Counted from the first letter of the stretch, positions 22,114 to 63,318 are shown. The stretch: DNA of 64,000 nt from Candidatus Hydrogenedentota bacterium (GCA_012730045.1 JAAYBR010000002.1:28911-92910); one strand, 5' to 3'. A program made the numbers and translations. Notes: generated by a model not told the origin, from the sequence alone.

Positions 22114-22322
22114 GAAGAGGGCGCGGCAAGCGGCGCCCCTACATGCCCGTACCCTGGGCATGCGCGAAACACCGGGTCATCCTCCCGCAGGGGCGCTGCT
22201 TGCCGTGCCCTGTGCGCATGCCAAATACCCGGTCGCTCGCCCGTAGGGGCGCTGCTTGCCGCGCCCTGTGTGCATGACAAATACCCGGTCACTCGCCCGT
22301 AGGGGCGCTGCTTGCCGCGCCC
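22114..22322. repeat. REP/MITE-like palindromic element, family 1: one full copy plus two tandem 62-bp partial units
   Basis: Core AGAGGGCGCGGCAAGC(A/G)GCGCCCCTAC and its inverted partner flank a roughly 50-bp centre. The same element occurs at 27854..27952 and, inverted, at 63217..63318. Confidence 0.6.
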
Positions 22323-22440
22323 GGGCGCGGGCACGATAGCCGTCGCTTGTCCGGTGACTGGGGCGCCACGGTCCCACACGCCGCCCACGCCGCCGGTCTG
22401 GTAAAATGGCCCCCGCACAACGGCAGAAAGACGCCCCCGC

Positions 22441-23379
22441 ATGATCCTCACAGTCACCCCGAACCCCTGCGTGGACAAGACGGTCTTCATCGCGCGCCTG
22501 GAGCCCGGCGGGCGTTTCCGCAGCCCGAAATGCACCCACATCCCCGGCGGCAAGGGCACCAACGTGTCGCGTGCCGTGAAGGCCCTCGGCGGCGACACGG
22601 CGGCCCTGGTCATCGTGGGCGGGCACACGGGCCGCCACGTGGTGGACATGATCGAACAGCAGGACGGGGTGCGCTGCGTGCCCGTGTGGGTAGCCGGCAT
22701 GACCCGCGTCATCACCACGGTGCTGGAGACGGACGTCCACCGCCAGACCGCCCTCTTCGACCCCGGCTCCCCCGTGACCGCCGCAGAGGGGGACGCCGTG
22801 GCGGCCGCCTTCGGCCGCGAGGTGCGCGGCGCCGCCGTCGCCACGTTCAACGGCTCCGTGCCCGACCCCGCCCTCGTGGACCTCTATGTCCGGTGCATCC
22901 CCCTCGCGCGGGAGGCCGGCGCCTTCACCATCCTCGACTCCTACGGCGAGGAGTTCCGCCGCGGCATCGCCGCCGGGCCGGACATGGTCAAGCCGAACCG
23001 CGAGGAGGCGGAGCGCCTGCTCGGGCGGAAACTGGAGACCCGCGCCGACTGCTGGGCCGCCGTGGACGCCTTCCACGCCATGGGCGTGCCGCTCGTCGTC
23101 CTGTCCCTGGGCGCTGAAGGCGCGCTCGTCTCCCGGAAAGGCGGCACCCGCCTCGAAGTGACCCCGCCCCCCATCGAGGAGGTCAACCCCGTCGGCTCCG
23201 GCGACGCGCTCGTCGCCGGGTTCGCCGTCGGCATCGAGCGCGGTCTCCCCCTCGACGAAACCGCCCGCCTCGCCGTCGCCTGCGGCACCGCCAACGCCCT
23301 CTCCTGGGACATCGGCCACTTCACCGCCAAAGAGGTGGAGGAGCTCGCCGCCCGCGTGCGGGTGGCGGCGATAGTCTAA
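22441..23379 (+). CDS. PfkB-family sugar kinase (1-phosphofructokinase / tagatose-6-phosphate kinase-like)
   Basis: N-terminal …LTVTPNP(C/S)VDKT… and C-terminal …NPVGSGDALVAGF… motifs typical of FruK/LacC. Confidence 0.8.
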   Translation: MILTVTPNPCVDKTVFIARLEPGGRFRSPKCTHIPGGKGTNVSRAVKALGGDTAALVIVGGHTGRHVVDMIEQQDGVRCVPVWVAGMTRVITTVLETDVHRQTALFDPGSPVTAAEGDAVAAAFGREVRGAAVATFNGSVPDPALVDLYVRCIPLAREAGAFTILDSYGEEFRRGIAAGPDMVKPNREEAERLLGRKLETRADCWAAVDAFHAMGVPLVVLSLGAEGALVSRKGGTRLEVTPPPIEEVNPVGSGDALVAGFAVGIERGLPLDETARLAVACGTANALSWDIGHFTAKEVEELAARVRVAAIV

Positions 23380-23689
23380 GCCTCTTGGACGCAACACAGA
23401 GGTTGGTATAGACAGACCGCAACACTCTCATCACTGAACCGACTACAGGCCCATCGAATCCACAAGACGCCGTCTGTCCACAGGAACCCTTTTCCACCTC
23501 GAATCGCACGCTAGTGAGCGTTTCTTCGTGCTCGTAATCAGGCAAGGCCCACCAGGCAAGAGAGTACCCTGGACTTGTGTACGGTGTGCTCCTGATCGAC
23601 AGAGACCCACGCCCCGCGCGGGCATCTGACTACCTGCTTGCGCGCTATCGCTAGCCCTGCGTAAGGCCTGTATACAAGATGCGGTCCGG

Positions 23690-24523
23690 CTAGTTAATCC
23701 GGCTCATCAGCAGCAAAGCCACACGGGTGGCAACCTCAGTTGCTGAACCAAGCTTAACCTCCTCGGTGGTCGCCGAAGCCATGACCCGCCCATCGGAAAG
23801 GGAAATGGCCTTGGCAATGATCACGGGCACTTCAACCGCATAGTCTCCGGAGACTTTCCGCACCATGCTTTGGCCCTTCTTCACCCGGGCACTAACCACA
23901 ATGTCCGCATGTTCTTTTACAGACGCCACCTGCGCCTGTTGCGCCTGTGGCAGCTCCGGATTAGCGAAAACAGCGTCCACATCGATACCTGACAGGCCGA
24001 TCGCCACGCTCCGGTCAACCAGCACCGCGCCGCCATCCATGAAGGGGCGCTCCAGACTGTGCTGAATAGATTCAAGCTCGTCTTCCGTGAAGTCGTTTGC
24101 GCCGGGTCCCTTGGGAACATAGACTTCCTCCACCGACTCGCCACGGGCCTTAAAGGTTCCTTCTTGGCTTGACTCCGCAGTGACCGATGCCGCTCCCGTC
24201 ACCTTCAGCACCTTCTGCATCGTCCGATCATCGTTATCCTGCATGTCACGGTTCACCAAGACTATGACTCGTGGGGCTTTTTTCCCTGAAAATGCCGTCC
24301 TGAATGCCTCTATTCCGTCCCTCGCCTCTTCCGACATGGTCGGGGTTCGCCTGTCAATTTGCTGCGCAAGTGGGGGGCGGTCAGGTGAAGGCACCACATG
24401 CGGCCTCTGGGGTAGTTCTGCTGAAGGAGCAACCACCGTGTTGGAAGACTGCGTCATGGCCACGCCCTGGAAGGCGCAAACCGACACGACCATGAAAGCC
24501 AGCATCCTTATATGTACCACCAT
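23690..24523 (-). CDS. hypothetical secreted/lipoprotein (277 aa), last gene of the low-GC lipoprotein operon
   Basis: Signal peptide, AGGAGG SD, about 52-55% GC. No family is confidently recognised. Confidence 0.55.
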   Translation of the reverse strand: MVVHIRMLAFMVVSVCAFQGVAMTQSSNTVVAPSAELPQRPHVVPSPDRPPLAQQIDRRTPTMSEEARDGIEAFRTAFSGKKAPRVIVLVNRDMQDNDDRTMQKVLKVTGAASVTAESSQEGTFKARGESVEEVYVPKGPGANDFTEDELESIQHSLERPFMDGGAVLVDRSVAIGLSGIDVDAVFANPELPQAQQAQVASVKEHADIVVSARVKKGQSMVRKVSGDYAVEVPVIIAKAISLSDGRVMASATTEEVKLGSATEVATRVALLLMSRIN

Positions 24524-24534
24524 GACCGAACCTC

Positions 24535-24957
24535 CTATCGCTCCATTCTGATGCGAATGGAGTATTGTTGTGATCTTTCGTTCAGAGCGACCGCCTTGTA
24601 AGTGGACTGGCCGTTAGGCGGGAGAATGAGTGTCACCCAGGCCGTCTCATCACCAGAAGAAAATCCAGCATCGTCCTTGAAGACTGTCTGCGCTTGGACG
24701 TTCACCGCATTGTCGGAATTGTTTCTGAGAATTGCCTCGGCGATAATCCGACCTTCAGTAGTGTAGCTGGCACGTTGGGCGTCTACGCTGATGAGTTTCT
24801 GCAGGGGCTTGTCAAGCAGAACCAGAGACTCTGTTCCTTCTAGGCTTGTCCCACGTTTAAGGGGTGCGTAGGGACCTTGCGTTTGACATCCCACTCCAAC
24901 CAGCAGGAATGCAATTAGAATGAGAGTCATCACCGCATATTGAACGTTAGTTTTCAT
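24535..24957 (-). CDS. small lipoprotein, YcfL/DUF1425-like
   Basis: Signal plus lipobox-like LLVGVGC; AAGGAG SD; size and pattern resemble E. coli YcfL. Confidence 0.55.
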   Translation of the reverse strand: MKTNVQYAVMTLILIAFLLVGVGCQTQGPYAPLKRGTSLEGTESLVLLDKPLQKLISVDAQRASYTTEGRIIAEAILRNNSDNAVNVQAQTVFKDDAGFSSGDETAWVTLILPPNGQSTYKAVALNERSQQYSIRIRMER

Positions 24958-24986
24958 AGTAATTCTCCTTGATGTGTTCACGTTGT

Positions 24987-26729
24987 TCATGTTTTTTCTC
25001 GCGACTTTTTGGAAGACGACTTCGGAGTGCTCTCGTCGTTCTTCCCAACAGATTTAGATATCTTGTACTTTCCGATTTCGGACATTCCTGATGCACTTAC
25101 AAAGTATGCTGTCCCCGTGGAGGCTGTGGAACTCTTCGATGTCTTTCCTGTCAACAGCAGATGCATGGACTTGTCAGGGGTGCAGTGATATTCAATTCGC
25201 ATGGCTTTTTTATCAATTGCACCCGAACAGGGAAACACTCCTTCAGGCCACCCCCCACCTGTTGTCTTGACGTAACCAGCGAAGGTCTCGTCCTGCCTAG
25301 AAATGACTGCCAGTTCAATGTTAACCTGCTCTTTCTTCTTTCCCCAACCGCCTGTCCATCTTTCAGACGCGTTACCAATCAGAGATGCGCCCTCTTCGGT
25401 GTATTTGGCGAAGCGCACATTGTTGACCTGGACGCCAAAACTTGGATCCCATGCAGTTAAGACATCAAATGGCTGGTCGCTTCGTGTAATCTGACCATCA
25501 GTGACCGTCCCCGTTTCCGTGCATTTTATCTGTATAGTGTGGGTGCCTGGGGAGAGGTTCAGTGGTATGATGTAGATATCATCTGGAACAGACAACATTC
25601 GAATATCGGCCGCAGGATTGGCTGCGGCGGATATTCCCTTGGAAATCAGACCTAGCACCATTAACCCCGCTCCCACCCCCGGCGCTGAGTCGCTGTCCCC
25701 AACGCCGGCGGCCAAAGCCCCGGAAACGATAGCAAGGTCGCCCGCCACGCTGGCCCCCTTCTTGAACTGGGCCTTTCCCTTGAGAATGGCATCAACAGCC
25801 CTCCCCCCCCGCGTCATGGCCTGAAAAGACATGTTGTCCAGCGGACCGTCCATGGTTGCAACGGAAGTTCCATTAATCAGGACATCGAGTGGACCAGACG
25901 CGCCACTTCCCGAATTGAAACGCAGAAACTGGGCATATTCTCCTGTCGCGTATTTTTTTGGACCGACACCAAGACCAATAACCAAAAGGGAATTAACGCC
26001 ATCAGGAATCGGCAACACGGCGTTTTCACTTCTCGCATGCTCCCGAGACACTTTTAGGCACTCATCGGAACGGTCCTGCAAGCCGAGCATCGTGTTGCAT
26101 ACCGCCTCGCAATAGTCCATCTCAGCAAGATCATCGTGATACTCCTCATCCTTTTTGGCATCTTCAGAGGAGCGATCAACAAGAGCACCCGACCTAAACA
26201 TAGCGCGGGCATTCTCATAATCACCTGCGCACATGTATAGAAGCCCTCGCTGGAGGTAGATCATGGCCTGCTCATATGGTTCACCGCGGAAGTTCTTCTC
26301 ATCCTCGCCTTTGAAAGTGGAGCGGGCTTTCTTGGCACTTTCATCGCCAGCACTGGAGCCCCCTATTCGTGTCAGAATCAGATCAAGAACGCGAGTCGCC
26401 TCTTCCATGTTTTTCGCGGCGAGTTGCTGATGGTAGATATGCCAGAGAACTAGCACAGCGCCGCGGTTTCCGACTTCCTCAAGAGATTTATATTCCGCTT
26501 GGAGTTCTGGCGGCATCTCCGAAAGATTAGGCGGCATGCAGTCCTGCACTTGCTCTATAGCTGCCTTTTGCTCGTCTTTCTTCTTTTGCTTATTTCTTTT
26601 CATATAGTCGTCCGCAGAATCGGCAATTGCTGAAACCGAAAAAAGAGCGATCGAAATAATGAAAAACAGTATTGACTTCAATGCTGAAGTGGAACCCATT
26701 TCTAATCTCCTTTTTGTGATGAATCGCAC
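24987..26729 (-). CDS. hypothetical secreted protein (about 570-580 aa) with signal peptide, Lys/Glu-rich N-terminal segment and Ser/Lys-rich C-terminus
   Basis: Signal …ILFFIISIALFSVSA; low GC; stop overlaps the next gene. No family recognised. Confidence 0.6.
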   Translation of the reverse strand: MRFITKRRLEMGSTSALKSILFFIISIALFSVSAIADSADDYMKRNKQKKKDEQKAAIEQVQDCMPPNLSEMPPELQAEYKSLEEVGNRGAVLVLWHIYHQQLAAKNMEEATRVLDLILTRIGGSSAGDESAKKARSTFKGEDEKNFRGEPYEQAMIYLQRGLLYMCAGDYENARAMFRSGALVDRSSEDAKKDEEYHDDLAEMDYCEAVCNTMLGLQDRSDECLKVSREHARSENAVLPIPDGVNSLLVIGLGVGPKKYATGEYAQFLRFNSGSGASGPLDVLINGTSVATMDGPLDNMSFQAMTRGGRAVDAILKGKAQFKKGASVAGDLAIVSGALAAGVGDSDSAPGVGAGLMVLGLISKGISAAANPAADIRMLSVPDDIYIIPLNLSPGTHTIQIKCTETGTVTDGQITRSDQPFDVLTAWDPSFGVQVNNVRFAKYTEEGASLIGNASERWTGGWGKKKEQVNIELAVISRQDETFAGYVKTTGGGWPEGVFPCSGAIDKKAMRIEYHCTPDKSMHLLLTGKTSKSSTASTGTAYFVSASGMSEIGKYKISKSVGKNDESTPKSSSKKSREKT

Positions 26730-26749
26730 AAATATTTATGAGGGGGCCG

Positions 26750-27361
26750 TTACCTATAGGCTGCGTCCTCAACACCTTCCTTTTTTATTTCAGAGAACTC
26801 TTCCCACTCCTCTATCCCCGTTTCCGCATTAATCAGCCTAAATGTATAGAGAATGTAGTCAGATTGACCTGTGGAAGAAGCTTGCGAAAGCCCCGTAAGC
26901 TCTCCCGTAAGAAAGTAATCGACTCCCGCCATAATACCTTCACCCGAAGACCCGACCATGCCCTCGCGCTTCATCTCTCGCTCTCTCTCCACCGCCTCTA
27001 TCCGGTCACGTGCGACAAACTGAACCGCCCCCCTGCATTGGGTGTTAAGTAAGGCTTTTATACGTTTATTGAATATGTCCTTGTTGATTGGAAATCGCGT
27101 GTCGTTCACCACCGGAAGCAATCCTATAACCGGAGGAGTTTGGGCGTTGGCAATCGCGGGGGTTGAAAGAACAGACCTAGCCATCTTGTCGCTCACTTCC
27201 TGAAGATCCTGTGATCCCACCCCAGTGCCCTCACCCTTACTCGGCTGGCTCGGATCAACCCTGCGCGGACCTATGCCTCCGGGGTTGTCGACCCCTGATG
27301 TGGCGCAACCGCATATCATCGCAACAACCAGACACAACGCCAACGCGACCAAATTTCTCAT
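26750..27361 (-). CDS. LpoB-like lipoprotein (COG3417; PBP1B activator family)
   Basis: Signal and lipobox; collinear motif pattern with E. coli LpoB (…LLPVVNDTR… / …VDYFLTGEL… / …YILYTFRLINAETGIEEWE…). Confidence 0.6.
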   Translation of the reverse strand: MRNLVALALCLVVAMICGCATSGVDNPGGIGPRRVDPSQPSKGEGTGVGSQDLQEVSDKMARSVLSTPAIANAQTPPVIGLLPVVNDTRFPINKDIFNKRIKALLNTQCRGAVQFVARDRIEAVEREREMKREGMVGSSGEGIMAGVDYFLTGELTGLSQASSTGQSDYILYTFRLINAETGIEEWEEFSEIKKEGVEDAAYR

Positions 27362-27853
27362 GACCTTATTCACTCCTCTAAAACAGTTGGGACTCCCTGC
27401 AACACATGGCGACATTCACCATGAGATTCGCTCGCTTCTGCTGTTCTGCGTCTGGAAGGGTGCTCTCCCGATTCGCCCCTTCCGCCAAGGGGGAAAGAAC
27501 GGGCATGTCTCCAGAGAGGCTCTCCCCCAAAAGCCTCGGCCTCCCAGAAGGAGCCGCCAGCGACCCGTCTGACCGCTCCCCCGCGCACCGGCAGTCCCCG
27601 GGAAAGAAATGCGAACCGATATATCCGCTGTGAGTGGCACACAGCCCCACGGGGACGGCTACTTTTTCCAAGAACCTCACCATACGCGCCAATTTAGCAG
27701 AATATATCCGCAATGTCAATAGGGAACGCCCATCCCTCCCGCCGGATACGGCGGGGAACGGAATCAGGCGCGTTGTGTTAACGCGCAGAGGAATTCATGC
27801 TGGCGAGAAAGGGATGCCCCTCACCCGCCAGGTAGGACGATCCTGCCGGGAAA

Positions 27854-27952
27854 GAAGAGGGCGCGGCAAGCGGTGGCCCTTACCTGCCTATGCCTCGGCA
27901 CACACGAAAACGCCGGGCAACCCGCTTGCAGGGGAGCCACTTGTTGCGCCCT
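27854..27952. repeat. REP/MITE-like palindromic element, family 1 (diverged copy)
   Basis: AAGAGGGCGCGGCAAGCGGTGGCCCTTAC … GCAGGGGAGCCACTTGTTGCGCCCT with terminal inverted repeats. Confidence 0.5.
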
Positions 27953-28119
27953 GGAGCGAACACATAGGCCATCGCTTATCCGACGATCCTGGACCCATCC
28001 GATTTGCCGCTCTTGCAATCGGCGGGCGCATGCGCCAGAATAGGGGGTGCAAGGGACCGGGCATCCGGTGGCCATTTCCGGCGGGGGTTTCCGCCGGACA
28101 ACCCAAGGAGACACAGGAC

Positions 28120-29650: not shown

Positions 29651-29659
29651 TCCGTCCGC

Positions 29660-35062: not shown

Positions 35063-35946
35063 TGACCCCGGAGGACGCGTCCGGCGACCGGGTGGTCCAC
35101 GCCACGGATCCGCATTTCTGGCGCGTGACCCTGAACCCCGCCCGGCTCGCGGGGAAGCGCGCCCTGGGCATGGCCAATCTGGTCCTGCGGCGGCGCCGGC
35201 ACCTCCGGACGGACCTGGCGGAGATCTTCGCGCGGGAGATCGCGGCAACGGGCGCCGGGACGGTCATCATCAGCGGTGACCTCACAACGACCTCGCTGGA
35301 GGCGGAGTTCGCCGCGGCGCGGGCGTTTCTGGACAGGCTGGCCTCCCTGGGACCGCGAATCCTCGTCATTCCCGGAAACCATGACGTGTACACCTTCTCC
35401 TCGGCCCGACGCCGCCTCTTTGAGCGTTTCCTGGGAGACTACCTGCCCGCACCGGAGCTGCCCGCGCGGGTCCTCCTGCCCCGGGGAGCGCCGGTGGTCT
35501 TCTATCCGGGAACAGGGCCCAACGTCATCACGTCGCGCGGCCGCATGGACCGTGCGGTCATCGAGCGGACGGCGGCGCTGGTCGCGGACGCGCCCGCCGG
35601 CCGCCCCGTGCTGCTGGTGGGGCACTATCCCCTGCTCCCGCAGACGGAGGCCTACCGGGAGGCATGGTCCCACCGGCTGCCCCGCGCCCGGGAACTCCGG
35701 GCGGCCCTGGCCGCCACGGGACGGACCCTCCTGTGCGCCGCGGGACATGTGCACCGGTTCTCGCTGGTCAGGGATCCGGAGCACCCCGTCCTCTTCCATC
35801 TCACGACGCAACCGCTTTTCATGCGCAGCGCGGCGCACGCGGGCGCGTTCTCTGTCCTCCGCTGCTCCCCTGCCGGGTTCGAGGTGAGCCGCTGCACCCG
35901 CCGGGACGATGCCTGGCACGAGTCCCCCCTCCCCGCCTTCCCCTGA
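35050..35946 (+). CDS. calcineurin-like metallophosphoesterase
   Basis: …VIISGDLT… …VIPGNHD… …GHYPL… …GHVHR… metal-ligand motifs; overlaps the upstream stop by 13 nt. Confidence 0.75.
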   Translation: MAEIMTPEDASGDRVVHATDPHFWRVTLNPARLAGKRALGMANLVLRRRRHLRTDLAEIFAREIAATGAGTVIISGDLTTTSLEAEFAAARAFLDRLASLGPRILVIPGNHDVYTFSSARRRLFERFLGDYLPAPELPARVLLPRGAPVVFYPGTGPNVITSRGRMDRAVIERTAALVADAPAGRPVLLVGHYPLLPQTEAYREAWSHRLPRARELRAALAATGRTLLCAAGHVHRFSLVRDPEHPVLFHLTTQPLFMRSAAHAGAFSVLRCSPAGFEVSRCTRRDDAWHESPLPAFP

Positions 35947-36021
35947 CCTCCCCACCCCCTTCACCGAATCGGAACAAAAAAAAGCCCTCCGGCGGTGTCG
36001 CCGAAGGGCTGGAAGGTTTTT

Positions 36022-36580
36022 AGTGAGATGCCGGCAGGGGGCGGCCGGCATCTCCGGTAAGGTGCGTTGCCCCGCCGGGGAGGCGGGGCGTCACAGAGGA
36101 GAACGGATAAGACCAGTGGAGATGCCGGCAGGGGGCGGCCGGCATCCCCGGTGAGGTGCGTTGCCCCGCCGGGGAGGCGGGGCGTCACAGAGGAGAACGG
36201 ATAAGACCAGTGGGAATGCCGGCAGGGGGCGGCCGGCATCCCCGGTGAGGTGCGTTGCCCCGCCGGGGAGGCGGGGCGTCACAGAGGAGAACGGATAAGA
36301 CCAGTGGGAATGCCGACAGGGGGCGGCCGACATCCCCGGTGAGGTGCGTTGCTCCGCCGGGGAGGCGGAGCGTCACAGAGGAGAACGGATAAGACCAGTG
36401 GAGATGTCGGCAGGGGGCGGCCGACATCCCCGGTGAGGTGCGTTGCCCCGCCGGGGAGGCGGGGCGTCACAGAGGAGAACGGATAAGACCAGTGGAGATG
36501 CCGGCAGGGGGCGGCCGGCATCCCCGGTGAGGTGCGTTGCTCCGCCGGGGAGGCGGAGCATCACAGAGGAGAACGGATAA
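36022..36580. repeat. tandem array of a 94-bp repeat (5.9 near-identical copies) with a further diverged partial copy at about 36672-36770
   Basis: Period of 94 bp read directly from the sequence. Each unit carries two GC-rich hairpins (GATGCCGGC-AGGGGGCG-GCCGGCATC and CCCCGCC-GGGGAG-GGCGGGG). Units 4 and 6 carry a paired C>T / G>A change that keeps the second stem intact. Confidence 0.9.
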
Positions 36581-36786
36581 ACCGTCCAAGCCGGAACCGG
36601 GCTCCGGCCTTCCGCGCGGCACCCATCCCCGCCAATCGGCAGGGGAACACGCGGAGATACATGTGAATGAATTCGGGAGATGCCGGCAGGGGGCGGCCGG
36701 CATCTCGGGGTGAGGTGCGTGCCCTGACTGGCGTCAGGGCGGGTAGAGGACTTGCGTCCTCTGTCTTGGGGGCAAAACTCTTTCTC

Positions 36787-38676: not shown

Positions 38677-38738
38677 TGGAACAGACCGGCGGCGCGCAAG
38701 TCAAACGGGTTCGCCGCGCGCGGGGCCGTTCGGGTAAA

Positions 38739-54100: not shown

Positions 54101-56398
54101 GAGAATGCCGCCGTCCCAGGAGCCCCCCTCGGTGCCCTTGGGGTTCCACCGGCGTGGCTGCACGAAACAGCGGGTGTCGGCGCCCAGTTTCATCCCGACG
54201 CCGTCGCCCTCCACGCCCGACACGTCGCGGAAACCGCTGTCGGCGCGCATCACCACGAAGTAATCCATTTTGGGCGGATAGTTCATGAGGAGGTTGTAGT
54301 TCGCAATGGCGTCCGGCGTCCCCTCCATGGCGCCCGTGGGCGTGTCGCCGGGGTTGCGCCGGCGGCCGCCGGAGAATCCGAGCCCGATGGTCCACCACGG
54401 GTCGCCGCCGCCCGGCGGGAAGGGCTCGTAGCCCCACTGCTGCATGCCGGGAAGTATGGGCTGGGTCTCGCCAAACGTGCCCGGAAGATACGGATACATG
54501 GGGTAGTCGGTGAACTGGATGCCGAGCGTGCCGCGGGGCGCCGGGGGGTCAAACTGGCCGTTGCCGTTGGTGTCGTGCCACAGCCAGAGGCCGTTGTACG
54601 CGAAGTCCTCGCCGGTGGCGTTCTCCGCGTCCACCCTGCCCACGGTCGTGAATTTTTCCAGCCTCTCGCTCGGGTCGCCGAGGCCGCCGTTGCCGGGGGG
54701 GCCGAAGGGGTCGCCGCCCACGTCCGTGATGGCCATGTGCAGCGACGTGGGCTGGGGGATTCCGCCGACGCCCGGCAGGCCGTGGGCGTCTATGCCCAGC
54801 AGGGGCACCCAGGACTCCACGGAGAAGAGCTGGCGCATGTCCACCGCCTCGCCGATGAGGGCCTGCAGGGAGGCCGTGGCCAGGTCCCAGCGCGGGCGCA
54901 CAAACTGCTCCAGGGGGGTGTAGAGCGAAGGCTGGTCGTTCCAGCTGTTGTAGCGCATGGGAAGGACGCCGCCGCGCACGTCGAACACGCCGAAACTCGA
55001 CGAGTACGCCTCCTCGGGCGCCAGGGTTTCCCCCTTGAAGAAGTCCGGGGAGAAGGTGTCCATCGGAACCCCTTCATCGTCCAGGGGCATCGTCTGCATC
55101 CGCACCTCGCCCGTGGTGAGGTCAACGTAATACGGCTGCATGCAAACGTTGGTCAACTCCATGCTGAGGGAGGTGCCGGTCTGCCAGGCGGACGACAGCC
55201 GCACGGCCACGACATAGTTGTTGCCCGTCGGCGAGGTCGTGATCCACTCGCCCTCGGGGCGGAAGGGGCCGGGCGCCGTGGACCCGAAAATTTCGCTGCC
55301 CGGATTGTTGACGGCCACCGGGAAGTCCGGGTCCGTGCTGTCGTAAATGAAGCTGAGGTTGTAGACGTTGTCGTTGATGTTGTACTTGAGCCCGTTGGGG
55401 GCGACGGTGTTTCCGCTAAAGGCCGGCATGTCGTACGGCCAGCCGTGGCTGTCCCATTCATACAGGGGTTCGGAATAGGCCACCACCTCGGGAATGTCCG
55501 GCAAACCCACCTGCACGTTGTCCCCGGAAGGCAGGCCGTCGCCGTCCAGGTTGAAGACCTGATGGACGGAGAAAATCAGATAGTCGCTCTCCTGGGGGGA
55601 GATGTTGTTGATGTAGCCGCGGTCTGTCATGGAGACCGGGTCTCTCTTCAGGCGGAAACTCAGGCGTGTCAGGGCGCGGGGCGCGGGCTCATTCTCGTTG
55701 CTCCACTTGAGGGTGAATCCGAAAAGGGGCACCCAGTCGTTCAGCGGAACCAGGCCGGCGGCGTCGGTGATGTACTCCTCCGCGGTGAAGTCCGCCGTGG
55801 CGACCTCCGCGACGGTGATGGCCTCCACGAGGTCCACGCGGCATATCTGGGTCGTGCTGTCGGGCATGATGATGACCGCCTCAACGATCACATCGTAGTC
55901 GCCGCCGTTGGCGATGCTCCCCGTCACGGTGGGCAGGTCGGCGACGGTGCCTGCGGGGGTCTGGTTCACGGCGTTGGCGTTGGGGTTGGGCTTGGGCTCG
56001 GTCCGGTCGGCAAACCAGGCGCGGTAGAGGTCCACGTCCTCCTTGACATACCAGTAGCGCGCGCGCTCAATGCGGACGGGGATGCGGCTGGGCAGTGAGA
56101 ACGCCCGGGCGAGCAGCTGAAAACTGCCGCCGGGTGTCACGGGGTTCGGCGACACGCTCAGCTCAACGCTCACCTGGTAGGGCGGGAGGAGGCAGTCAAT
56201 CTGGCCGGGCGCGAGGCTGGCCGAGACCAGGCCCGCCAGAGCCGCGTCGCTCCCCGCAAAGGCGACCCGCATGGGTTCCGCCCGCCGGGCGTCCTGGGAT
56301 AGAACGCCCGGTGCGCGTGCCACCAGGAACCCCGCCAGTCCCACAAGCACAAGACCCCACAGGGCCACTCTGATTGTCGCGCGAAGTCGTGTGTTCAC
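45191..56398 (-). CDS. giant secreted surface protein (about 3735 aa): two roughly 1.3-1.8-kaa tandem modules separated by a PKD-domain pair and (GE)9 linker, C-terminal IPT/TIG-like domains, Cys plus hydrophobic helix plus RRRR anchor
   Basis: GTG start with signal peptide VNTRLRATIRVALWGLVLVGLAGFLVARAPG. PKD motifs WSFGDGQ…NPVHIY…GFYTV and WNFGDGQ…NPVHRY…GIYDV. C-terminus …GCAPGTASGTSWADAAVMLAAAGLLALAGRRRRAAGRG. The internal duplication is visible at DNA level. Confidence 0.8.
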   Translation of the reverse strand: MNTRLRATIRVALWGLVLVGLAGFLVARAPGVLSQDARRAEPMRVAFAGSDAALAGLVSASLAPGQIDCLLPPYQVSVELSVSPNPVTPGGSFQLLARAFSLPSRIPVRIERARYWYVKEDVDLYRAWFADRTEPKPNPNANAVNQTPAGTVADLPTVTGSIANGGDYDVIVEAVIIMPDSTTQICRVDLVEAITVAEVATADFTAEEYITDAAGLVPLNDWVPLFGFTLKWSNENEPAPRALTRLSFRLKRDPVSMTDRGYINNISPQESDYLIFSVHQVFNLDGDGLPSGDNVQVGLPDIPEVVAYSEPLYEWDSHGWPYDMPAFSGNTVAPNGLKYNINDNVYNLSFIYDSTDPDFPVAVNNPGSEIFGSTAPGPFRPEGEWITTSPTGNNYVVAVRLSSAWQTGTSLSMELTNVCMQPYYVDLTTGEVRMQTMPLDDEGVPMDTFSPDFFKGETLAPEEAYSSSFGVFDVRGGVLPMRYNSWNDQPSLYTPLEQFVRPRWDLATASLQALIGEAVDMRQLFSVESWVPLLGIDAHGLPGVGGIPQPTSLHMAITDVGGDPFGPPGNGGLGDPSERLEKFTTVGRVDAENATGEDFAYNGLWLWHDTNGNGQFDPPAPRGTLGIQFTDYPMYPYLPGTFGETQPILPGMQQWGYEPFPPGGGDPWWTIGLGFSGGRRRNPGDTPTGAMEGTPDAIANYNLLMNYPPKMDYFVVMRADSGFRDVSGVEGDGVGMKLGADTRCFVQPRRWNPKGTEGGSWDGGILFNIQYKVMAEYLAGITINGTPINPWPDKAREKLTVGETFGVLWQNAAANDLVCDPSDFPCSYVIKREYGWWTERSHNRDTVKAVRCGAEVHDLVLTYATDNRWAKVTPAMAGQSLDAFDFFGYIDPVTGLARQIFLDAEWNGRTAISLWTDPAFFNTDDIDVPGYEYYPSGPPRYIWDAFQAKDLVDFYGMGELRFFHRHNPFMFPDYFDSFRGAGEWLMTHYAFETVPFKLEGDGLDEELAEPRSTFWPDPPSQPTLPRYSTWAGYQGGQTIINWGDTSLCYLASEGAQANVPYNLTGASGAEATYADDVYVFVVNGPHLGPLAGDLAGKWLVDNYGGRYYILSNSGNSLTLREGHGAYLDRSQAPVDLSVPDYPYGVGVGIGNAVSRGRWMIVEDTLPRSVYPRLEDWRPERLLNASNAWAARLLKQYIGVDTLPTAMLGFNLAGTDDPAVNAYSPISLSNATVAFWGPDFTPGQLSGLDVDGALFTSGVLLYEDSNNNGVFDGPFLTSGVTSPSFTDRIVPLAEGSLSWAQAPEVIDLDDDYLPDDLSGDGVVFDGDPLVPADVARLSAAELAAWDGLSDRAWVLTLIPRTKWDVPYKDTETGVSLYKSAGDRAKDAADWPDYWLDAPSFVDLALKAADEKALNIAAGSPGADLFVVVRTSQQAKAFMEFRAVVPANLPTRTPDARKLAGLQMMPRAYDVVDTMTKHNIEESPLQDYYGHDMLPVNVRTLVFDTSTGSIQPGGAESAVLGLDCSVNRPENIVARGQGTGAQTTASSFIPTEADITGANASYYASGAWTANAVGLYLIGLSQGSHPRVEAYEITAVGGRTLTLRAGAPRTDGAWYVVKDPSFLEQLVVEFYDVARTGAFNLVSDLVPLDHEDPINGLFSGVSVYRDNDFHPGNRNGVYDPPVRDAQGNVTEYIDLPVRLDNPPVLIGAVGGEPEYQVKMTFASPGTDSFIGRDATPYVSQPRNRQWVPMTPGAAPTDADFGPDFFVVVRAATAMNQGDQFQAAIVSWGPNTPTEPDPDNFTVSLASPPLPGQNADEFDLFSEFPWGSRAVGYITLFQRPRPVRYWGFDKDKMSVIPRTDVDRSQDGPDFAALRNWIRTNTPVANLTQTVTATTPATLDFTGTPRRQIVNGSVAFTLIGANQAASVAWSFGDGQASNEINPVHIYTATGFYTVSVAVTNQYGVTTTVTKTEYIEILATPYVDFSATPTRGNITPANPVPALAVTFTDLSVGDSCFAPVGWYWNFGDGQSSTERNPVHRYTAPGIYDVVLTVTYRDNCNGGALVTRQFTRENYIEVLECIGCGTEGEGEGEGEGEGEGEGEGQTDEPTADISFSTLVADRESVLPLSDWVPLFRFTMSYGESEEENDNFAPRKLKSLTYWVRPDSRNNDDLNYLNMGAPYFTDLLEFGLFIENKAGEEAEEVLGPLNGILDSQYDELMFTWDNLGAPVGEITGLQQYSGIVYELDFIGNGTAARPQFDVPAGEVNEDFRPDGNSYIVAVRSSATWRSQLTMGVEVLDAVMVDPRTGTYPVDEEGLPTDSYSPNFWDGEILEDKQFYSSSFTVYDYVGSPSGRQAPIFHDAWSHPNFLYTPMAEYSRPRWNKPDQLLDVVAGEFLQMRKLLGVDSWSSVLGINAHSTNSVHFADTEITRDISEKNAAQLREVNVILTDIGGDPYGAPGNGGFDPRTGLEDITEQLWGLPLYNEEVFGRELTYNGTWVWHDTNNNGVFDAPTPNAIGGLTFAGDYPMLANASSSVELMPTWEYIPLPPGGGDPWWKISLRLWGGTRKLGNYGAYDKGFTEGFLEKTPDNYAEGPMGNFGAEASPDYFVVVRTDSGFRDISLAPGDGQGITYGADFRAFIEPRRFNPESGNWEGGVFVDSMIPAQGVKLGATALYPWQNDPRWGEYEPWWPQRTFNQATAKPIRVGVDVHDLVITYESDSPYRNQTDLFYIPSVDVYNPGNVDLDNVTLGGYTDIGVGMLSGFDQWLDPFGLEQIKFENGHTVDVRDWRLFGARVVDFGLFQVNFLYDDTGRWGQFAYETVPFFSPLSTLGDAPPVGPRSSAYPVPPQQPALPRYSTWSAELLPGEYPRASQWRSANAGARLLAQKVDGNSAHMPMLGMNLVASSDPIVTSTGEPVAVSQITVAFWGPDFTPAMLRTLDPDTNDNQSLDSGVLLWEDADQNGIFLNTQDLNNYAGSGAALPLLDRIVPVTNVKWASQPELVDLDGDGRADDMDGNGIVDDADRAWVLTLYPRSNWTVPRLDGYEFDFEIPNDNKAAGAGPVSTALQVNGVQQAAPGAKALDPEVLQPGDDLFISISTSDSVARFSKIRAVIPANLPTRPDNQRRGGIQFFPSVNTSGTAFVKSSPDEDPVQDFYGHDMLEVNVPVRMVDLTNRNAKLNIGGEAVPVLGLDLATNRPGDILAAGNGGIGLVSGYRVPSAAWVPGALAGDWLVDSGYETYEILGNSANELTLRAGTPRNGAWRVVRDPSFLEELTVELYQNGANAIFNPLTDLLPLSRDQRISGVALYRDNDNHPENRNGYFDPGIDIPIQLDGPPRFTGQTADDIQVRFVFSTPGTDDQPLPREQQSRNRQWIQPTFGVSINDLDYGPDFFVVVRAAQGMQEGDSFRAGIVSWGPNTPTEPDPDTWANLPGEDRNDFRKFREFQWAQRGLGFVTFFRTPPAYYWMDGAKAGVRPDSSGFNWIRSHTMKKQLSGVLEARARVVGPTTIAIDSVSQAELPSQTLPGEPFRFVIYGQNFGTRPVVVMSGYDVVVTGATNTTISLSVSSRSDDPPVEPIVLLVRNTATGQEVSRSDLFSLSPGTPERSPKVLRVDPKRASRKKFPVTLYGEDLGDVQSAQVYFGKTLMPVIGGSPDGTRLVVGFPVGGMAQTGKMDVKVGNAAKNKEDILVDGFEYVNDDNRNKFLGYIGCAPGTASGTSWADAAVMLAAAGLLALAGRRRRAAGRG

Positions 56399-56793
56399 CA
56401 CGCCACTCTCCCAGAAAGGCGTTCCCGCGCGCCGCCGCACCTGCGGTGCGCGCCGGGGGCCGCCAATGCTTCGTAACACCCTGCCGGCACCCGCCGCCGC
56501 CGAAAAACCCGGCTGCACGGCGGCGCGCACGCGCCCGGAACACAAATCCCGGACACGTCCGCTGGCATCCTTTCGTCTGCCGACCGACCTGTCATGGCAC
56601 ATTTTTCCCGTTGTCCACTCCGTTTTTATATCACAGCCGGGCCAAAGTGTCAATAGAGAAGTTGCCTGCAATTCCAAATGATGCTTGAATTTAGGTTGCC
56701 GAATGCCACGGAGCATATCGGCAGATTTCGCATTTCAGTGTAAAGTAATTCCTGTCCGCCGCGCAAAACTTCGCGCGCCCTCGCCGTAACCGC

Positions 56794-61890: not shown

Positions 61891-62103
61891 GCGGCCATTA
61901 TCCCTCTCAGGCGGTTTATGCCGGAGCCACCCCAAATACCGGCGGCGGCATACGACATATTGAACGCGTCTTGACCGGAACACATCATATTGTGCGCCGA
62001 ACCGCACCCCAAACGCAACCTGTGGGGCGGGTCCGTTACCAAGAAAATGCGCCCGGCCGGAGTCCTTCCGACAAGAGATTGCCGCGCCGGCCGGGGCGAC
62101 CGG

Positions 62104-62244
62104 CTCGCAACGACGCGGAGATTTCCGTCATGGCGAGCAAAGCGACGCCATCTCGTTCTCGCGCAGGCCAGGGCAGCCGTCTCGCAACAACGCGGAGATT
62201 TCCGTCATGGCGAGCGAAGCGACGCCATCTCGCTCCCGCGCCGG
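62104..62244. repeat. two tandem about 76-bp units of palindromic repeat family 2 (…ctcgcaacgacgcggagatttccgtcatggcgagcgaagcgacgccatctcg…)
   Basis: Direct tandem duplication read from the sequence; related copy at 20549..20608. Confidence 0.5.
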
Positions 62245-62299
62245 CCTAAAAAAGGAAACCGCCCGGACGTGAACACGCCGGGCGGCAGAATGATGATAA

Positions 62300-63085
62300 T
62301 CAGTCCCGGTCCTCCGGGGCCAGGCCGGAAACCTCCTCCAACCCCGCCGGATCGGAGGAATCCAACACCTCCATCTCGGGTCCCTTCTTCTCCTCGGCCG
62401 CCGGGGCGGGCCGCTCCACCACCACGGTGTCGTCCAGCGTGAGGGCGGACAGCGGGGGGCGCGCCAGCGCCACGGCCATGCGGTTGGTCAGGGAGCCCTT
62501 GTCGGACTCCACCTCGTCGCGGATCTTCTGGGCCGTGCTGTTGGCGTCCACATGCACGCCCACCACGTTCAGCTTCACCTCGACCATGTCCTCCAGGCCG
62601 AAGGCCGTGCTCACGGTGTGGGCGATGCAGTCGGACACCACGGCCGACGTGCGGCGCAGGCCGGCGTCGGCGCAGTTCTGGAGCACCACCGCGGCGTGCA
62701 CATTAATCTTGCGGGCCGTCCGGTCCGGCGCGACGCGCACCTTGATGCGGCGGACCTCCGGCAGCGCGCCGATGACCTTGGCCAGGGTCTGCTGGATGGG
62801 GCGCAGCTCGATGGAGACATTGCCCCGCTCGGTGCGGAAAGTGATCGCCGCGCCCGCTCGGCGCTCCGGCAGCAGCCCTATCAGACCCAGCAGCACCAGC
62901 ACCCCGCCGATGGCCCCCACCCACGCGGCCACGGGCACCCCGGCCACCGCGCCCGTGTCCGTGATCCGGTTCAGCAGTTCCACCGACCGCATGACCCAGT
63001 CGCCCGGGTCGGCGGCCACCACAATGACGCCCGCCCCGGCCACGACCACCACAAAGCTCAGCAGTTTGAACAGCAGGGTCTTCAT
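62300..63085 (-). CDS. Asp23/Gls24-family (alkaline shock protein 23-like) envelope-associated protein with N-terminal membrane anchor
   Basis: Asp23 domain pattern (…VHVDANSTAQKIRDEV…), N-terminal TM segments, acidic C-terminus. Confidence 0.65.
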   Translation of the reverse strand: MKTLLFKLLSFVVVVAGAGVIVVAADPGDWVMRSVELLNRITDTGAVAGVPVAAWVGAIGGVLVLLGLIGLLPERRAGAAITFRTERGNVSIELRPIQQTLAKVIGALPEVRRIKVRVAPDRTARKINVHAAVVLQNCADAGLRRTSAVVSDCIAHTVSTAFGLEDMVEVKLNVVGVHVDANSTAQKIRDEVESDKGSLTNRMAVALARPPLSALTLDDTVVVERPAPAAEEKKGPEMEVLDSSDPAGLEEVSGLAPEDRD

Positions 63086-63216
63086 CTCGCGTCCTCCGGC
63101 AGGTTGAACTTCCCACGGCGCGCCCGGGCGGCCACTCCGCCCATTGTAGCAGGGACGCGGCGGTTTTGAAAAGCGCGGTTTTCACCCCGGCGGACAAGAC
63201 GGTCCTGCCGCGAAAA

Positions 63217-63318
63217 AAGAGGGCGCGGCAAGCAGCGCCCCTACGGGAGGATGACCCGGCGTTTATCGCGCATGCCCAGAGTGCTGGCATGTAGGGGCGC
63301 TGCTTGCCGCGCCCTCTT
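63217..63318. repeat. REP/MITE-like palindromic element, family 1 (clean copy with perfect 27-bp terminal inverted repeats)
   Basis: AAGAGGGCGCGGCAAGCAGCGCCCCTAC … GTAGGGGCGCTGCTTGCCGCGCCCTCTT. The centre is the reverse complement of the centre of the 22114 copy. Confidence 0.6.

What the first reader, a model, noticed from the sequence alone, without database searches (positions are those of the whole stretch)
22114..63318. Dispersed REP/MITE-like palindromic element (family 1) present in three copies including a tandemised one
A roughly 100-bp element bounded by perfect 27-bp inverted repeats (AAGAGGGCGCGGCAAGCAGCGCCCCTAC … GTAGGGGCGCTGCTTGCCGCGCCCTCTT) occurs at 63217-63318. It occurs in inverted orientation with two extra 62-bp tandem sub-units at 22114-22322, and as a diverged copy at 27854-27952. 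All copies are intergenic. The terminal repeat itself is an imperfect palindrome (GGGCGC…GCGCCC). Such elements can act as transcript-stability, termination or recombination sites and are useful strain markers. The family does not look like classic enterobacterial REP, BOX or ERIC elements.
Basis: seen in the sequence. Interest (0 to 1): 0.5.

Follow-up and report, generated by a model that had tools for sequence, protein, structure and literature searches.

The report
GTAG-tagged REP dimers in Hydrogenedentota
The three repeats are real copies of a small palindromic "REP" element, the kind thought to be copied around bacterial genomes by a dedicated RAYT transposase; this is an ordinary class of element, but the same 24-base unit turns up unchanged in at least eleven bacterial phyla and inside the transposase gene itself.

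Summary

**What it is**
- The unit is a 24-nt REP, GTAG-GGGCGC-YGCTTGCY-GCGCCC. It has the unpaired GTAG tag that defines the REP superfamily.
- In the window, two inverted units with GTAG facing inward flank a conserved, asymmetric 44-46 nt spacer.
- Copy 1 adds two head-to-tail units. Copies 2 and 3 are nested in an outer palindrome; copy 3 folds as a 162-nt hairpin (z = -8.7).
- All three copies are intergenic.

**Where else it occurs**
- The source is a Candidatus Hydrogenedentota MAG. The same composite element sits at unrelated loci in other Hydrogenedentota MAGs, so it is a dispersed family and not a local duplication.
- The 24-mer occurs in at least 11 phyla, at host GC of 45-74%.
- In seven loci from other genomes it flanks, overlaps the stop codon of, or lies in frame inside a RAYT-type Y1 transposase gene.

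**Limits and verdict**
- No RAYT gene is in the window, and the rest of the source genome could not be searched.
- Verdict: a new member of a known kind (a REP/REPIN- or BIME-like element).
- Mobilisation by a RAYT acting in trans is inferred, not shown. A terminator role is plausible for copy 3.
- Interest is moderate to low. The RAYT-internal REP is the part worth following up.

The parts
22115..22142 (-). Copy 1, left REP unit. On the minus strand it reads GTAGGGGCGCCGCTTGCCGCGCCC followed by TCTT. Together with the following CTTCCTTCTT it is also a terminator-like hairpin on the minus strand.
22143..22186 (+). Copy 1, asymmetric 44-nt spacer: a small hairpin ATGCCCGTACCCTGGGCAT, then GCGCGAAACACCGGGTCATCCTCCC.
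22187..22210 (+). Copy 1, right REP unit of the dimer (GCAGGGGCGCTGCTTGCCGTGCCC). Its GTAG tag is degenerated to GCAG.
22211..22322 (+). Copy 1, two extra head-to-tail units of 56 nt. Each is a 32-nt spacer-like segment plus a REP unit; the REP units are at 22243-22266 and 22299-22322.
   Evidence: (D8, D9)
22323..22365 (+). Copy 1, right ('B-type') flank. It contains the outer-arm motif GCCGTCGCTTGTCCGGTGA (22339-22357), which is shared with copy 2 and with copies in other Hydrogenedentota MAGs.
27824..27854 (+). Copy 2, left ('A-type') flank and outer arm. It is 81% identical to the left flank of copy 3 when aligned together with the start of the REP.
   Evidence: (D19)
27855..27952 (+). Copy 2, diverged core: AAGA plus a reverse REP (to 27883), a 45-nt spacer, then a forward REP GCAGGGGAGCCACTTGTTGCGCCC (27929-27952).
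27953..27995 (+). Copy 2, right ('B-type') flank with the outer-arm motif GCCATCGCTTATCCGACGA (27968-27986).
63186..63216 (.). Copy 3, left outer arm (CCCGGCGGACAAGACGGTCC) plus a linker. It pairs with 63331-63347 in the predicted fold.
63217..63244 (-). Copy 3, left REP unit with AAGA. On the minus strand it reads GTAGGGGCGCTGCTTGCCGCGCCC followed by TCTTTTTT, which is terminator-like.
63245..63290 (-). Copy 3, 46-nt spacer, in the opposite orientation to the spacers of copies 1 and 2.
63291..63318 (+). Copy 3, right REP unit plus TCTT. It is the perfect 28-bp inverted partner of 63217-63244.
   Evidence: (I8)
63319..63347 (.). Copy 3, linker and right outer arm (GACCGTCTCCCGGCGGG). The full hairpin spans 63186-63347 and ends 3 nt from the crtO-like stop codon.

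Best explanation
The three loci are copies of a REP-type repeat in a Candidatus Hydrogenedentota genome.

**Anatomy.**
- The basic unit is a 24-nt GTAG-tagged hairpin: GTAG, a 6-bp G/C stem, one conserved mismatch, and a G-C pair closing a CTTG loop.
- In this lineage the unit that is copied is a dimer of two inverted REPs. Their GTAG tags face inward ('tail-to-tail') around a conserved 44-46 nt spacer.
- The dimer is often extended by head-to-tail units and often nested in an outer palindrome. This makes it a REPIN- or BIME-like element.

**Proposed mechanism.**
- I propose that a RAYT (REP-associated tyrosine transposase, HUH/Y1 family) encoded elsewhere in the genome spreads and maintains these elements in trans.
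- The RAYT would recognise the folded single-stranded hairpin together with its GTAG tag.
- Once inserted, copies are mostly neutral passengers in intergenic DNA.
- Where the REP followed by its T-rich 'TCTT...' flank faces the 3' end of a gene, as at copy 3, it probably also acts as a Rho-independent terminator or 3' mRNA stabiliser.

**Shown:** the sequence anatomy, hairpin potential, GTAG tag, dispersal to unrelated loci and species, and physical linkage of this exact REP to RAYT genes in other genomes.

**Inferred:** that a RAYT exists in this genome, that it mobilises these copies, and that any copy terminates transcription.
For: **Real, non-chance repeat.** Six 24-mer units are found against 0 expected. 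The core alignment of 8 copies has 84% mean column identity.

**GTAG tag.** 'GTA' precedes the scanned 21-mer in 121 of 141 hits, although it was not part of the search pattern. This matches the definition of GTAG REPs in PMC3733652.

**Palindromy and dimer hairpin.**
- Copy 3 folds as a 162-nt hairpin: -109.3 kcal/mol, z = -8.7.
- Copy 1: z = -4.8.
- Copy 2: z = -2.7.

**Dispersed family.**
- The same oriented core scores 69.9-86.3 bits only in the window and in Hydrogenedentota loci: L026/L131/L135, L073, L132/L134, L116 and L129/L136.
- L129 has two loci in 14.7 kb. The window has three in 64 kb.
- Flanking genes differ between these loci.

**Source organism.** It is confirmed as a Hydrogenedentota MAG.

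**RAYT linkage for this exact REP.**
- RAYT-like ORFs are adjacent to the REP, or contain it, in L035, L072, L085 and L096.
- They match NCBIfam REP_Tyr_transpos at E of about 1e-16 to 1e-17.
- There are at least 7955 homologue clusters, many named RayT or carrying PF01797.
- 44 of the best 120 homologues contain the peptide GAASSAPT, which is the REP read in frame.
- In three homologues chosen by protein similarity alone, that peptide is encoded by the REP DNA itself.

**Terminator-like geometry.** It is present on the minus strand at copies 1 and 3.

**Other.** No Rfam family matches, and no target-site duplication is seen by direct reading.
Against: - No Y1/RAYT gene lies in the 64-kb window (Pfam on about 30 of the roughly 38 predicted ORFs). 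The rest of the source genome could not be searched.
- The genome-wide copy number is unknown. A pattern specific to the composite element found only 8 stretches in the JGI metagenome collection, so the family may be low-copy.
- In RAYT-linked genomes the REP mostly occurs as single units or head-to-head dimers (99 singles, 29 HH, 25 HT). Tail-to-tail dimers with the 44-46 nt spacing seen in the window were 5 of the 9 TT dimers, so this architecture may have its own biology.
- Orthologous copies of locus 3 in four other samples are 100% identical. This gives no gain/loss polymorphism to demonstrate mobility.
- Covariation in the dimer stem is minimal: 3 of 28 pairs show double changes. Structure is supported by palindromy, not by compensatory evolution.
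Confidence: 0.75

Rival explanations
1. The element is primarily a host cis-regulatory RNA or DNA structure, kept for that function rather than as a mobile repeat. Candidates are a bidirectional terminator or insulator, or a 3' mRNA stabiliser.
For: - On the minus strand, the REP hairpin is followed by CTTTTTTCGC (copy 3) or CTTCCTTCTT (copy 1). Both score as terminator-like.
- Copy 3 starts 3 nt after the crtO-like stop codon, and a sigma-70-like promoter follows it.
- All three copies sit upstream of a promoter-like site for the next minus-strand gene.
- The spacer sequence is conserved between MAG species.
- Some copies are in convergent 3'-end positions (L116, L129).
Against: - Copies 1 and 2 lie between divergent genes, and the predicted promoters lie outside them. 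They are probably not in any mRNA.
- Terminator-like hits are not above the shuffle expectation: 1-2 found against 0.5-0.8 expected.
- There is no Rfam match.
- Almost no covariation is seen.
- The identical 24-mer at unrelated sites in 11 phyla, and next to RAYT genes, points to a spread element.
- This reading is compatible with the main explanation as a secondary role.
Confidence: 0.3
2. The three copies are the product of a local segmental duplication within this 64-kb region and are not a dispersed family.
For: - Only three loci were seen in the window.
- Copies 1 and 2 are 5.5 kb apart in the same orientation.
Against: - Similarity stops about 40-50 nt outside the REP dimer, and the flanking genes are unrelated.
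- The same core occurs at unrelated loci in several other Hydrogenedentota MAGs and metagenome contigs.
- The REP unit occurs in more than 120 loci of other genomes.
Confidence: 0.02
3. It is a classical MITE: a deletion derivative of a DDE-transposase insertion sequence, with terminal inverted repeats and target-site duplications.
For: - Length of about 100-190 nt.
- No coding capacity.
- Long inverted termini.
- Intergenic position.
Against: - No direct repeat flanks either the REP dimer or the outer palindrome (direct reading).
- The 'TIR' is a self-complementary GTAG-tagged hairpin that also occurs alone and in head-to-tail arrays, which DDE-type MITEs do not do.
- No DDE transposase is in the window.
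- The same hairpin flanks Y1 (HUH) transposase genes.
Confidence: 0.04
4. The inverted REPs form a recombination or inversion module, or an integration hotspot. Their significance here would be to mark the boundary of the low-GC island (about 23380-27850).
For: - Copy 2 abuts the right edge of a 53%-GC island in a 68%-GC genome.
- The REP-spacer-REP core occurs in both orientations relative to its outer flanks in different copies. This is what recombination between inverted REPs would produce.
Against: - Copy 1 is separated from the island's left edge by a native-composition pfkB gene.
- No integrase or recombinase is in the window.
- Copy 3 and the copies in other MAGs are not next to islands.
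- With three copies, one adjacency is not beyond coincidence.
Confidence: 0.05

Closest known systems
GTAG-tagged REPs (Di Nocera, De Gregorio & Rocco 2013, PMC3733652; RAYT-associated REPs of Nunvar et al. 2010, PMC2817692)
   Same: - A 20-40 nt GC-rich imperfect palindrome with an unpaired GTAG at one end.
- Occurs as single units, head-to-head, tail-to-tail and head-to-tail dimers, and clusters.
- Mostly extragenic.
- The same REP flanks RAYT genes and overlaps their ends ('REPtrons').
- Dimers can be nested inside longer palindromes, as described for A. variabilis GTAG-15 and T. roseum GTAG-23.
   Different: - This sequence type was not found in the text or supplements of that paper. Its figures, which carry the family consensus sequences, could not be read.
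- The host phylum, Hydrogenedentota, is not among those surveyed there.
- The same 24-mer is shared base-for-base across at least 11 phyla, whereas most described REP families are species- or genus-specific.
- No RAYT has been shown in the source genome.
REPINs (REP doublets forming hairpins; Bertels & Rainey 2011, Pseudomonas fluorescens SBW25; background knowledge, see also PMC8049555)
   Same: - Two inverted REPs at a fixed short spacing.
- The doublet folds as one long hairpin.
- The whole doublet, including the spacer, is what is conserved between copies.
   Different: - The spacer is longer (44-46 nt), asymmetric and conserved across species.
- There is an extra outer palindrome and head-to-tail extensions.
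- No population-level evidence of replication, and no cognate single-copy RAYT, has been shown here.
E. coli BIMEs / RIP (REP-IHF-REP) elements (Gilson, Bachellier and colleagues; background knowledge)
   Same: - A mosaic of REPs in alternating and tandem orientation.
- The REPs are separated by conserved non-REP motifs.
- Located between genes.
- Proposed roles in termination, mRNA stability and protein binding.
   Different: - Unrelated sequence.
- No evidence here that the conserved spacer (GCGCGAAGACACC...CCTCCC) binds IHF, gyrase or any other protein.
RAYT / TnpA-REP Y1 (HUH) transposases (PF01797; NCBIfam NF047646; E. coli TnpAREP structure, PMC3479197; PMC8266576)
   Same: - The proteins next to this REP in other genomes have the HUH motif (NHxHG) and the WQRNYY(E/D)HIIR motif.
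- They match REP_Tyr_transpos at E of about 1e-17.
- They are flanked by the REP.
   Different: - They score below the NCBIfam equivalog cutoff (59-64 bits against 80).
- This clade carries the REP in frame inside the gene (peptide GAASSAPT before LGxIxRAFKS) in 44-62 of the 120 best homologues. I did not find this feature described.

Membership tests
REP (GTAG superfamily) | Short (20-40 nt) imperfect palindrome able to form a stem-loop. | tested here: met
   The 24-nt unit has a 6-bp GGGCGC/GCGCCC stem, a Y-Y mismatch, and a G-C pair closing a CTTG loop.
REP (GTAG superfamily) | Conserved unpaired GT(A/G)G tetranucleotide at one end. | tested here: met
   - Five of 6 well-conserved window units have GTAG and one has GCAG.
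- GTA precedes the scanned 21-mer in 121 of 141 hits elsewhere, although it was not in the pattern.
REP (GTAG superfamily) | Many dispersed, mostly extragenic copies in one genome. | tested here: inconclusive
   - Three intergenic loci (8 units) are in the 64 kb.
- Two loci are in a 14.7-kb related contig.
REP (GTAG superfamily) | Association with a RAYT gene flanked by the same REP (REPtron). | tested here: met
   - Met in other genomes: L035, L072, L085, L096, L140 and L141, plus L142, which carries one GTGG-tagged internal unit.
- Not testable in the source genome. There is none in the window.
REPIN | Two inverted REPs at a fixed short distance that fold as one hairpin and are conserved as a unit. 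| tested here: met
   - Spacing is 44-46 nt in 5 of 9 tail-to-tail dimers.
- The whole core is conserved: 84% mean column identity over 8 copies.
- The folds are long hairpins.
REPIN | Replicates within the genome together with a vertically inherited, single-copy RAYT. | not testable with these tools
   This needs the complete genome and related genomes. Orthologous locus-3 copies from four samples are identical and so uninformative.
BIME-like mosaic element | REPs in alternating or tandem orientation separated by conserved non-REP motifs. | tested here: met
   - Copy 1 is a tail-to-tail dimer plus two head-to-tail units of 56 nt.
- L116, L129 and L133 are similar.
- The spacer motif is conserved across MAGs.
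BIME-like mosaic element | Binding of host proteins (IHF, DNA gyrase, Pol I) to the element. | not testable with these tools
MITE (DDE-type) | Target-site duplication flanking the terminal inverted repeats. | tested here: not met
   No direct repeat is seen at the ends of the REP dimer or of the outer palindrome in any of the three copies (direct reading; flanks aligned).
CRISPR array | Direct repeats separated by unique spacers, usually with cas genes nearby. | tested here: not met
   - The 32-nt intervals between the direct REPs are copies of one another: 71-75% to the first unit, 93% in TRF.
- No cas genes are in the window.
Curated RNA family (Rfam 15) | Score at or above a family's gathering threshold. 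| tested here: not met
   - There are 0 hits at gathering thresholds over the whole window.
- At permissive E-values there are only generic long-hairpin matches to plant miRNA precursors, far below threshold.
Intrinsic (Rho-independent) terminator | GC-rich hairpin followed by a U-run at the 3' end of a transcription unit. | tested here: inconclusive
   - The consensus scan is positive on the minus strand at copy 1 and copy 3, but not above the shuffle expectation.
- Only copy 3 follows a gene's stop codon.
- No transcript data are available.

The most novel reading that the evidence does not exclude
This 24-nt REP and one large clade of RAYT transposases may form a single horizontally spreading unit, in which the REP is part of the transposase's own coding sequence.

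- In frame, the REP encodes GAASSAPT. It sits between the HUH motif and the LGxIxRAFKS helix, often as a whole in-frame REP dimer.
- The gene's stop codon is often the TAG of a downstream GTAG REP.
- That arrangement would explain why one REP sequence is identical across at least 11 phyla and across host GC of 45-74%, unlike the species-specific REPs of proteobacteria.
- It would also suggest either self-targeting and self-regulation of the RAYT gene by its own REP, or that genomic REPs are seeded from the gene.
- The tail-to-tail composite in Hydrogenedentota would then be a lineage-specific derivative of this pan-bacterial system.
Probability: 0.35. Interest if true: 0.65.

Novelty: new member of a known kind. 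Interest (0 to 1): 0.38.

Why it matters
For this genome the finding is mainly useful for annotation. These elements explain the long intergenic hairpins. They may terminate or stabilise neighbouring transcripts, and they can serve as strain markers or assembly breakpoints in Hydrogenedentota MAGs.

The wider point is the cross-phylum identity of the REP and its presence inside RAYT genes. REP-RAYT systems are usually described as vertically inherited, species-specific 'domesticated' pairs. A single REP type shared by Chloroflexota, Armatimonadota, Acidobacteriota, Desulfobacterota, Bacillota, Pseudomonadota and others, and physically built into the transposase gene, would give two things:
- a tractable case for how REP specificity is maintained and spread;
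- a ready substrate-enzyme pair for biochemical tests.

Tried and rejected
- **rRNA operon between copies 1 and 2.** The 53%-GC stretch suggested one. It was rejected: there are no Rfam or tRNA hits, and the stretch is a four-gene low-GC island.
- **Rfam at permissive thresholds on copies 1 and 3.** Only spurious long-hairpin miRNA matches appeared.
- **CRISPR-like reading of the 56-nt array.** Rejected because the 'spacers' are repeats of each other.
- **Further copies, or 'empty' outer palindromes, in the window.** None were found.
- **Y1/RAYT, integrase or DDE transposase in the window.** None were found.
- **Empty-site test of mobility.**
  - Exact-protein look-ups gave contigs identical at locus 3.
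  - More distant homologues of the 261-aa neighbour are not syntenic and carry no element.
  - Look-ups for pfkB and the oxidoreductase failed, probably because the called start codons differ.
- **Metagenome scan with a composite-specific 25-mer.** It returned only 8 stretches.
- **Covariation on the 8-copy core alignment.** Too little variation to support or reject an RNA structure.
- **IMG/VR scan.** The REP is present on 48 predicted viral contigs, but no RAYT lies in the fetched flanks.
- **Literature search by sequence string.** No paper was found that spells out this REP.
- **Genome scan cap.** Neither a per-genome count nor a RAYT search in Hydrogenedentota genomes was possible afterwards.

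Full report
**1. The observation**

- At 63217-63244 and 63291-63318 there are two perfectly complementary 28-nt arms, AAGAGGGCGCGGCAAGCAGCGCCCCTAC and GTAGGGGCGCTGCTTGCCGCGCCCTCTT.
- At 22115-22322 the same arms flank a related spacer in the opposite orientation. Two further direct units follow, with a period of 56 nt, not 62 (D8; TRF 2.5 copies, 93% matches).
- At 27855-27952 lies a copy that is 73-74% identical to the other two.
- The 24-mer GTAGGGGCGCTGCTTGCCGCGCCC matches six times at up to 3 mismatches, against 0.00 expected.
- A profile of the about 100-nt core finds these three loci and nothing else in the window.

**2. Anatomy**

The basic unit is 24 nt: GTAG, then GGGCGC, an 8-nt centre (Y)GCTTGC(Y), then GCGCCC. 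This gives a 6-bp G/C stem, a pyrimidine-pyrimidine mismatch that is kept in all variants, and one G-C pair closing a CTTG loop.

In the window, two inverted units have their GTAG ends facing inward. Di Nocera et al. (PMC3733652) call this a 'tail-to-tail' (TT) dimer.
- The dimer flanks an asymmetric spacer of 44-46 nt. The spacer holds a small hairpin (ATGCC...GGCAT) and the motif GCGCGAA(A/G)ACnCCGG...CCTCCC.
- The spacer gives the element a polarity. Copies 1 and 2 point one way and copy 3 the other.
- Similarity extends 30-45 nt beyond the REPs (D19). One side is an 'A-type' flank (...GACGGTCCTGCCG.GAAA.AAGA). The other is a 'B-type' flank (...CACGATAGCCGTCGCTTGTCCGGYGA).
- These flanks are partly complementary to each other, so copy 3 folds as one 162-nt hairpin, 63186-63347 (-109.3 kcal/mol, z = -8.7).
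- Copy 1 (z = -4.8) lacks the left outer arm. Copy 2 is weaker (z = -2.7).

**3. Context in the window**

Exact-sequence look-ups place the window in a Candidatus Hydrogenedentota MAG (NLV39716.1 and neighbours, a 112-kb contig). Identical contigs occur in several metagenome assemblies.

The region is ordinary chromosome. It carries aspS, rplL, rsgA, xseA, purH, a DAHP synthase, scpB and similar genes.

All three copies are intergenic.
- Copy 1 lies between the divergent genes rsgA and pfkB.
- Copy 2 lies between an LpoB-like gene and a Tat-signal Gfo/Idh/MocA oxidoreductase. That gene's real start is near 28120.
- Copy 3 starts 3 nt after the crtO-like stop codon.

On the minus strand, the A-side REP is followed by a T-rich run: CTTTTTTCGC at copy 3 and CTTCCTTCTT at copy 1. 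The consensus scan calls these terminator-like, although not above shuffle expectation. Each is followed by a sigma-70-like promoter with TACAAT for the next minus-strand gene.

No Y1/RAYT, DDE transposase or integrase is encoded in the window.

**4. A dispersed family in the lineage**

The genome-collection scan with the REP centre and the metagenome scan with a composite-specific 25-mer recovered the same oriented core, with the same spacer motif and the same two kinds of flank. These copies are at unrelated loci in other Hydrogenedentota MAGs and contigs: L026/L131/L135, L073, L132/L134, L116, L129/L136, L133, L024 and L007.
- Head-to-tail extensions recur there, with periods of 57-69 nt.
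- L129 carries two loci within 14.7 kb.
- Gene contexts are mixed: convergent, divergent and unidirectional.
- This excludes a local segmental duplication.
- In L073/L132 the core is inverted relative to the A/B flanks compared with copy 2, L026, L116 and L129. Copy 3 has A-type sequence next to both REPs.
- Two explanations fit: recombination between the inverted REPs flips the spacer, or the dimer inserts in either orientation into a palindromic site. Di Nocera et al. describe REP dimers nested in longer palindromes.
- The outer-arm motif does not occur without a REP dimer in the window.

**5. The REP unit is pan-bacterial**

The hits came from Chloroflexota, Armatimonadota, Acidobacteriota, Desulfobacterota, Hydrogenedentota, Bacillota, Pseudomonadota, Planctomycetota, Myxococcota, Methylomirabilota and Nitrospirota. 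They include the isolates Geobacter hydrogenophilus, Nitrolancea hollandica and Iodobacter sp..
- These are not chance matches. GTA, which was not in the pattern, precedes 121 of 141 hits.
- Host-locus GC ranges from 45 to 74%.
- Several genomes were hit on multiple contigs.
- Across these loci and the window there are 208 units at up to 4 substitutions: 99 single units, 29 head-to-head dimers, 25 head-to-tail and 9 tail-to-tail. Five of the nine TT dimers have the window's 44-46 nt spacing.

**6. Link to RAYT transposases**

Six-frame searches of the fetched loci found Y1 transposase genes next to or around this exact REP in L035, L072, L085 and L096.
- They match NCBIfam REP_Tyr_transpos at E of about 1e-16 to 1e-17, below the equivalog cutoff.
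- In L035 and L096 the gene's TAG stop codon is the TAG of a downstream GTAG REP, and REP dimers lie upstream. In L072, L085 and L096, REP dimers sit in frame inside the gene.
- A homologue search returned at least 7955 clusters, many named 'REP element-mobilizing transposase RayT'.
- Of the best 120 homologues (39-100% identical to the query, mostly 45-60%), 44 contain GAASSAPT and 62 contain it or a near variant. GAASSAPT is the REP read in reverse, frame 2. It always lies immediately before the conserved LGxIxRAFKS and after the HUH motif. Protein lengths vary from 130 to 301 aa.
- In three homologues picked by protein similarity alone, from loci of 52-59% GC, that peptide is encoded by GGGCGC(G/A)GCAAGCAGCGCCCC(T/C)AC. 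This is the REP itself, not synonymous variants.
It could not be answered for the source genome.

**7. Most likely mechanism**

*Shown:*
- a GTAG-tagged hairpin unit;
- a conserved dimer that folds as a long hairpin;
- dispersal to unrelated intergenic sites within the lineage;
- no target-site duplication;
- physical linkage of the same REP with RAYT genes elsewhere.

*Inferred from established knowledge of TnpA-REP/RAYT and IS200/IS605 enzymes (PMC3479197, PMC8266576, PMC2817692):*
- A RAYT encoded elsewhere in this genome binds the single-stranded hairpin plus its GTAG.
- It cuts and rejoins nearby, copying or moving the units without duplicating the target.
- Tandem and inverted arrangements arise by repeated action, slippage and recombination.

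*Secondary, also inferred:* copy 3, placed right after a stop codon with a U-run after the hairpin, terminates or stabilises the crtO-operon transcript.

**8. Rivals**
- **Purely regulatory RNA or DNA structure.** This is compatible with copy 3. It fits poorly with copies 1 and 2, which lie between divergent promoters. It also lacks covariation support and any Rfam match.
- **Segmental duplication.** Refuted.
- **DDE-type MITE.** It fails the target-site-duplication test.
- **CRISPR.** It fails the unique-spacer test.
- **Island-boundary or recombination module.** This is suggested only by copy 2 abutting the low-GC island and by the core inversions. It remains a minor possibility.

**9. Comparison with known families, and novelty**

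The element works like a REP/REPIN/BIME and meets the structural criteria for one. Two criteria remain open: genome-wide abundance, and a cognate RAYT in the same genome.

It is therefore a new member of a known kind, in a phylum where REPs have not, to my knowledge, been described. Two lineage-specific features stand out: the tail-to-tail dimer with a conserved asymmetric spacer, and the outer palindrome.

The more surprising result lies outside the window: one REP sequence is shared across phyla and embedded in frame in its RAYT clade. I did not find this described in the held literature. However, the figures of the key survey could not be read and the literature search was limited.

**10. 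What could not be done**
- An empty-site test of mobility.
- Any transcript or biochemical evidence.

Noticed in passing
L072:19-996, L085:7669-8000, L096:1778-2520, L035:5310-6016, L140:9962-10519, L141:8667-10180, L142:10001-10576; proteins P0001-P0120: A very large RAYT clade (at least 7955 clusters) carries this same REP inside its coding sequence.
- The peptide GAASSAPT (44 of the 120 best hits; 62 counting near variants) lies just before LGxIxRAFKS.
- It is encoded by the REP DNA itself.
- There is often an upstream VGAGLALP or VGAPLAAP partner, forming an in-frame REP dimer of variable length.
- The stop codon is frequently the TAG or TAA of a downstream GTAG REP.
   Followed up: partly
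L001-L120, L143-L190: - The 24-mer GTAGGGGCGCYGCTTGCCGYGCCC is identical in genomes of at least 11 phyla, including three cultured isolates, at locus GC of 45-74%.
- It is also present on 48 IMG/VR predicted viral contigs, none with a RAYT in the fetched flanks.
   Followed up: partly
window 63186-63347 vs 27824-27995; L073, L132, L026, L116, L129: The REP-spacer-REP core occurs in both orientations relative to its A-type and B-type outer flanks in different copies. This suggests either inversion by recombination between the inverted REPs or orientation-free insertion into a palindromic site.
   Followed up: partly
window 23380-27850: A low-GC island (about 53% against 68%) with four minus-strand genes lies here.
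- The genes are an unknown 277-aa protein, a YcfL/DUF1425 protein of 151 aa, an unknown 580-aa protein and an LpoB-like lipoprotein of 221 aa.
- It was probably acquired horizontally.
- The diverged REP copy 2 sits at its right edge.
- The same cluster is present on metagenome contigs L121-L124.
   Followed up: partly
window 35934-36709 (TRF 36025-36580): A tandem array of a 94-nt unit lies here: 5.9 copies at 95% identity, with degenerate copies at both ends.
- Each unit holds two GC-rich hairpins (GATGCCGGC...GCCGGCATC and GCCCCGCC...GGCGGGGC).
- The array lies after a terminator-like hairpin at about 35980-36020, at the start of an about 2-kb stretch in which no ORF passed the GC3 coding filter, although long ORFs exist there.
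   Followed up: no
window 62082-62246 and 20573-20608: A second repeat family is present: a 77-nt unit in tandem (2.1 copies, 87%) containing the palindrome GTCATGGCGAGCGAAGCGACGCCATCTCG, with a lone related unit 41 kb away. The lone unit is not intergenic: it lies about 125 nt beyond the rsgA stop, inside unannotated overlapping ORFs listed.
   Followed up: no
window 6125-10951 (minus strand) and 45191-56734 (minus strand): - One very large ORF is a 1609-codon protein with immunoglobulin-like domains. It contains a long Gly/Ala-rich region encoded by 9-nt repeats (window 9374-10555).
- A second is a 3848-codon ORF with internal repeats.
   Followed up: no
L141:562-18686: In a Desulfobacca MAG, the REP-flanked RAYT gene sits inside a BREX-type defence locus (PglZ, BrxL, an MmeI-like methyltransferase) and is surrounded by at least 10 REP units within 1.5 kb.
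   Followed up: no
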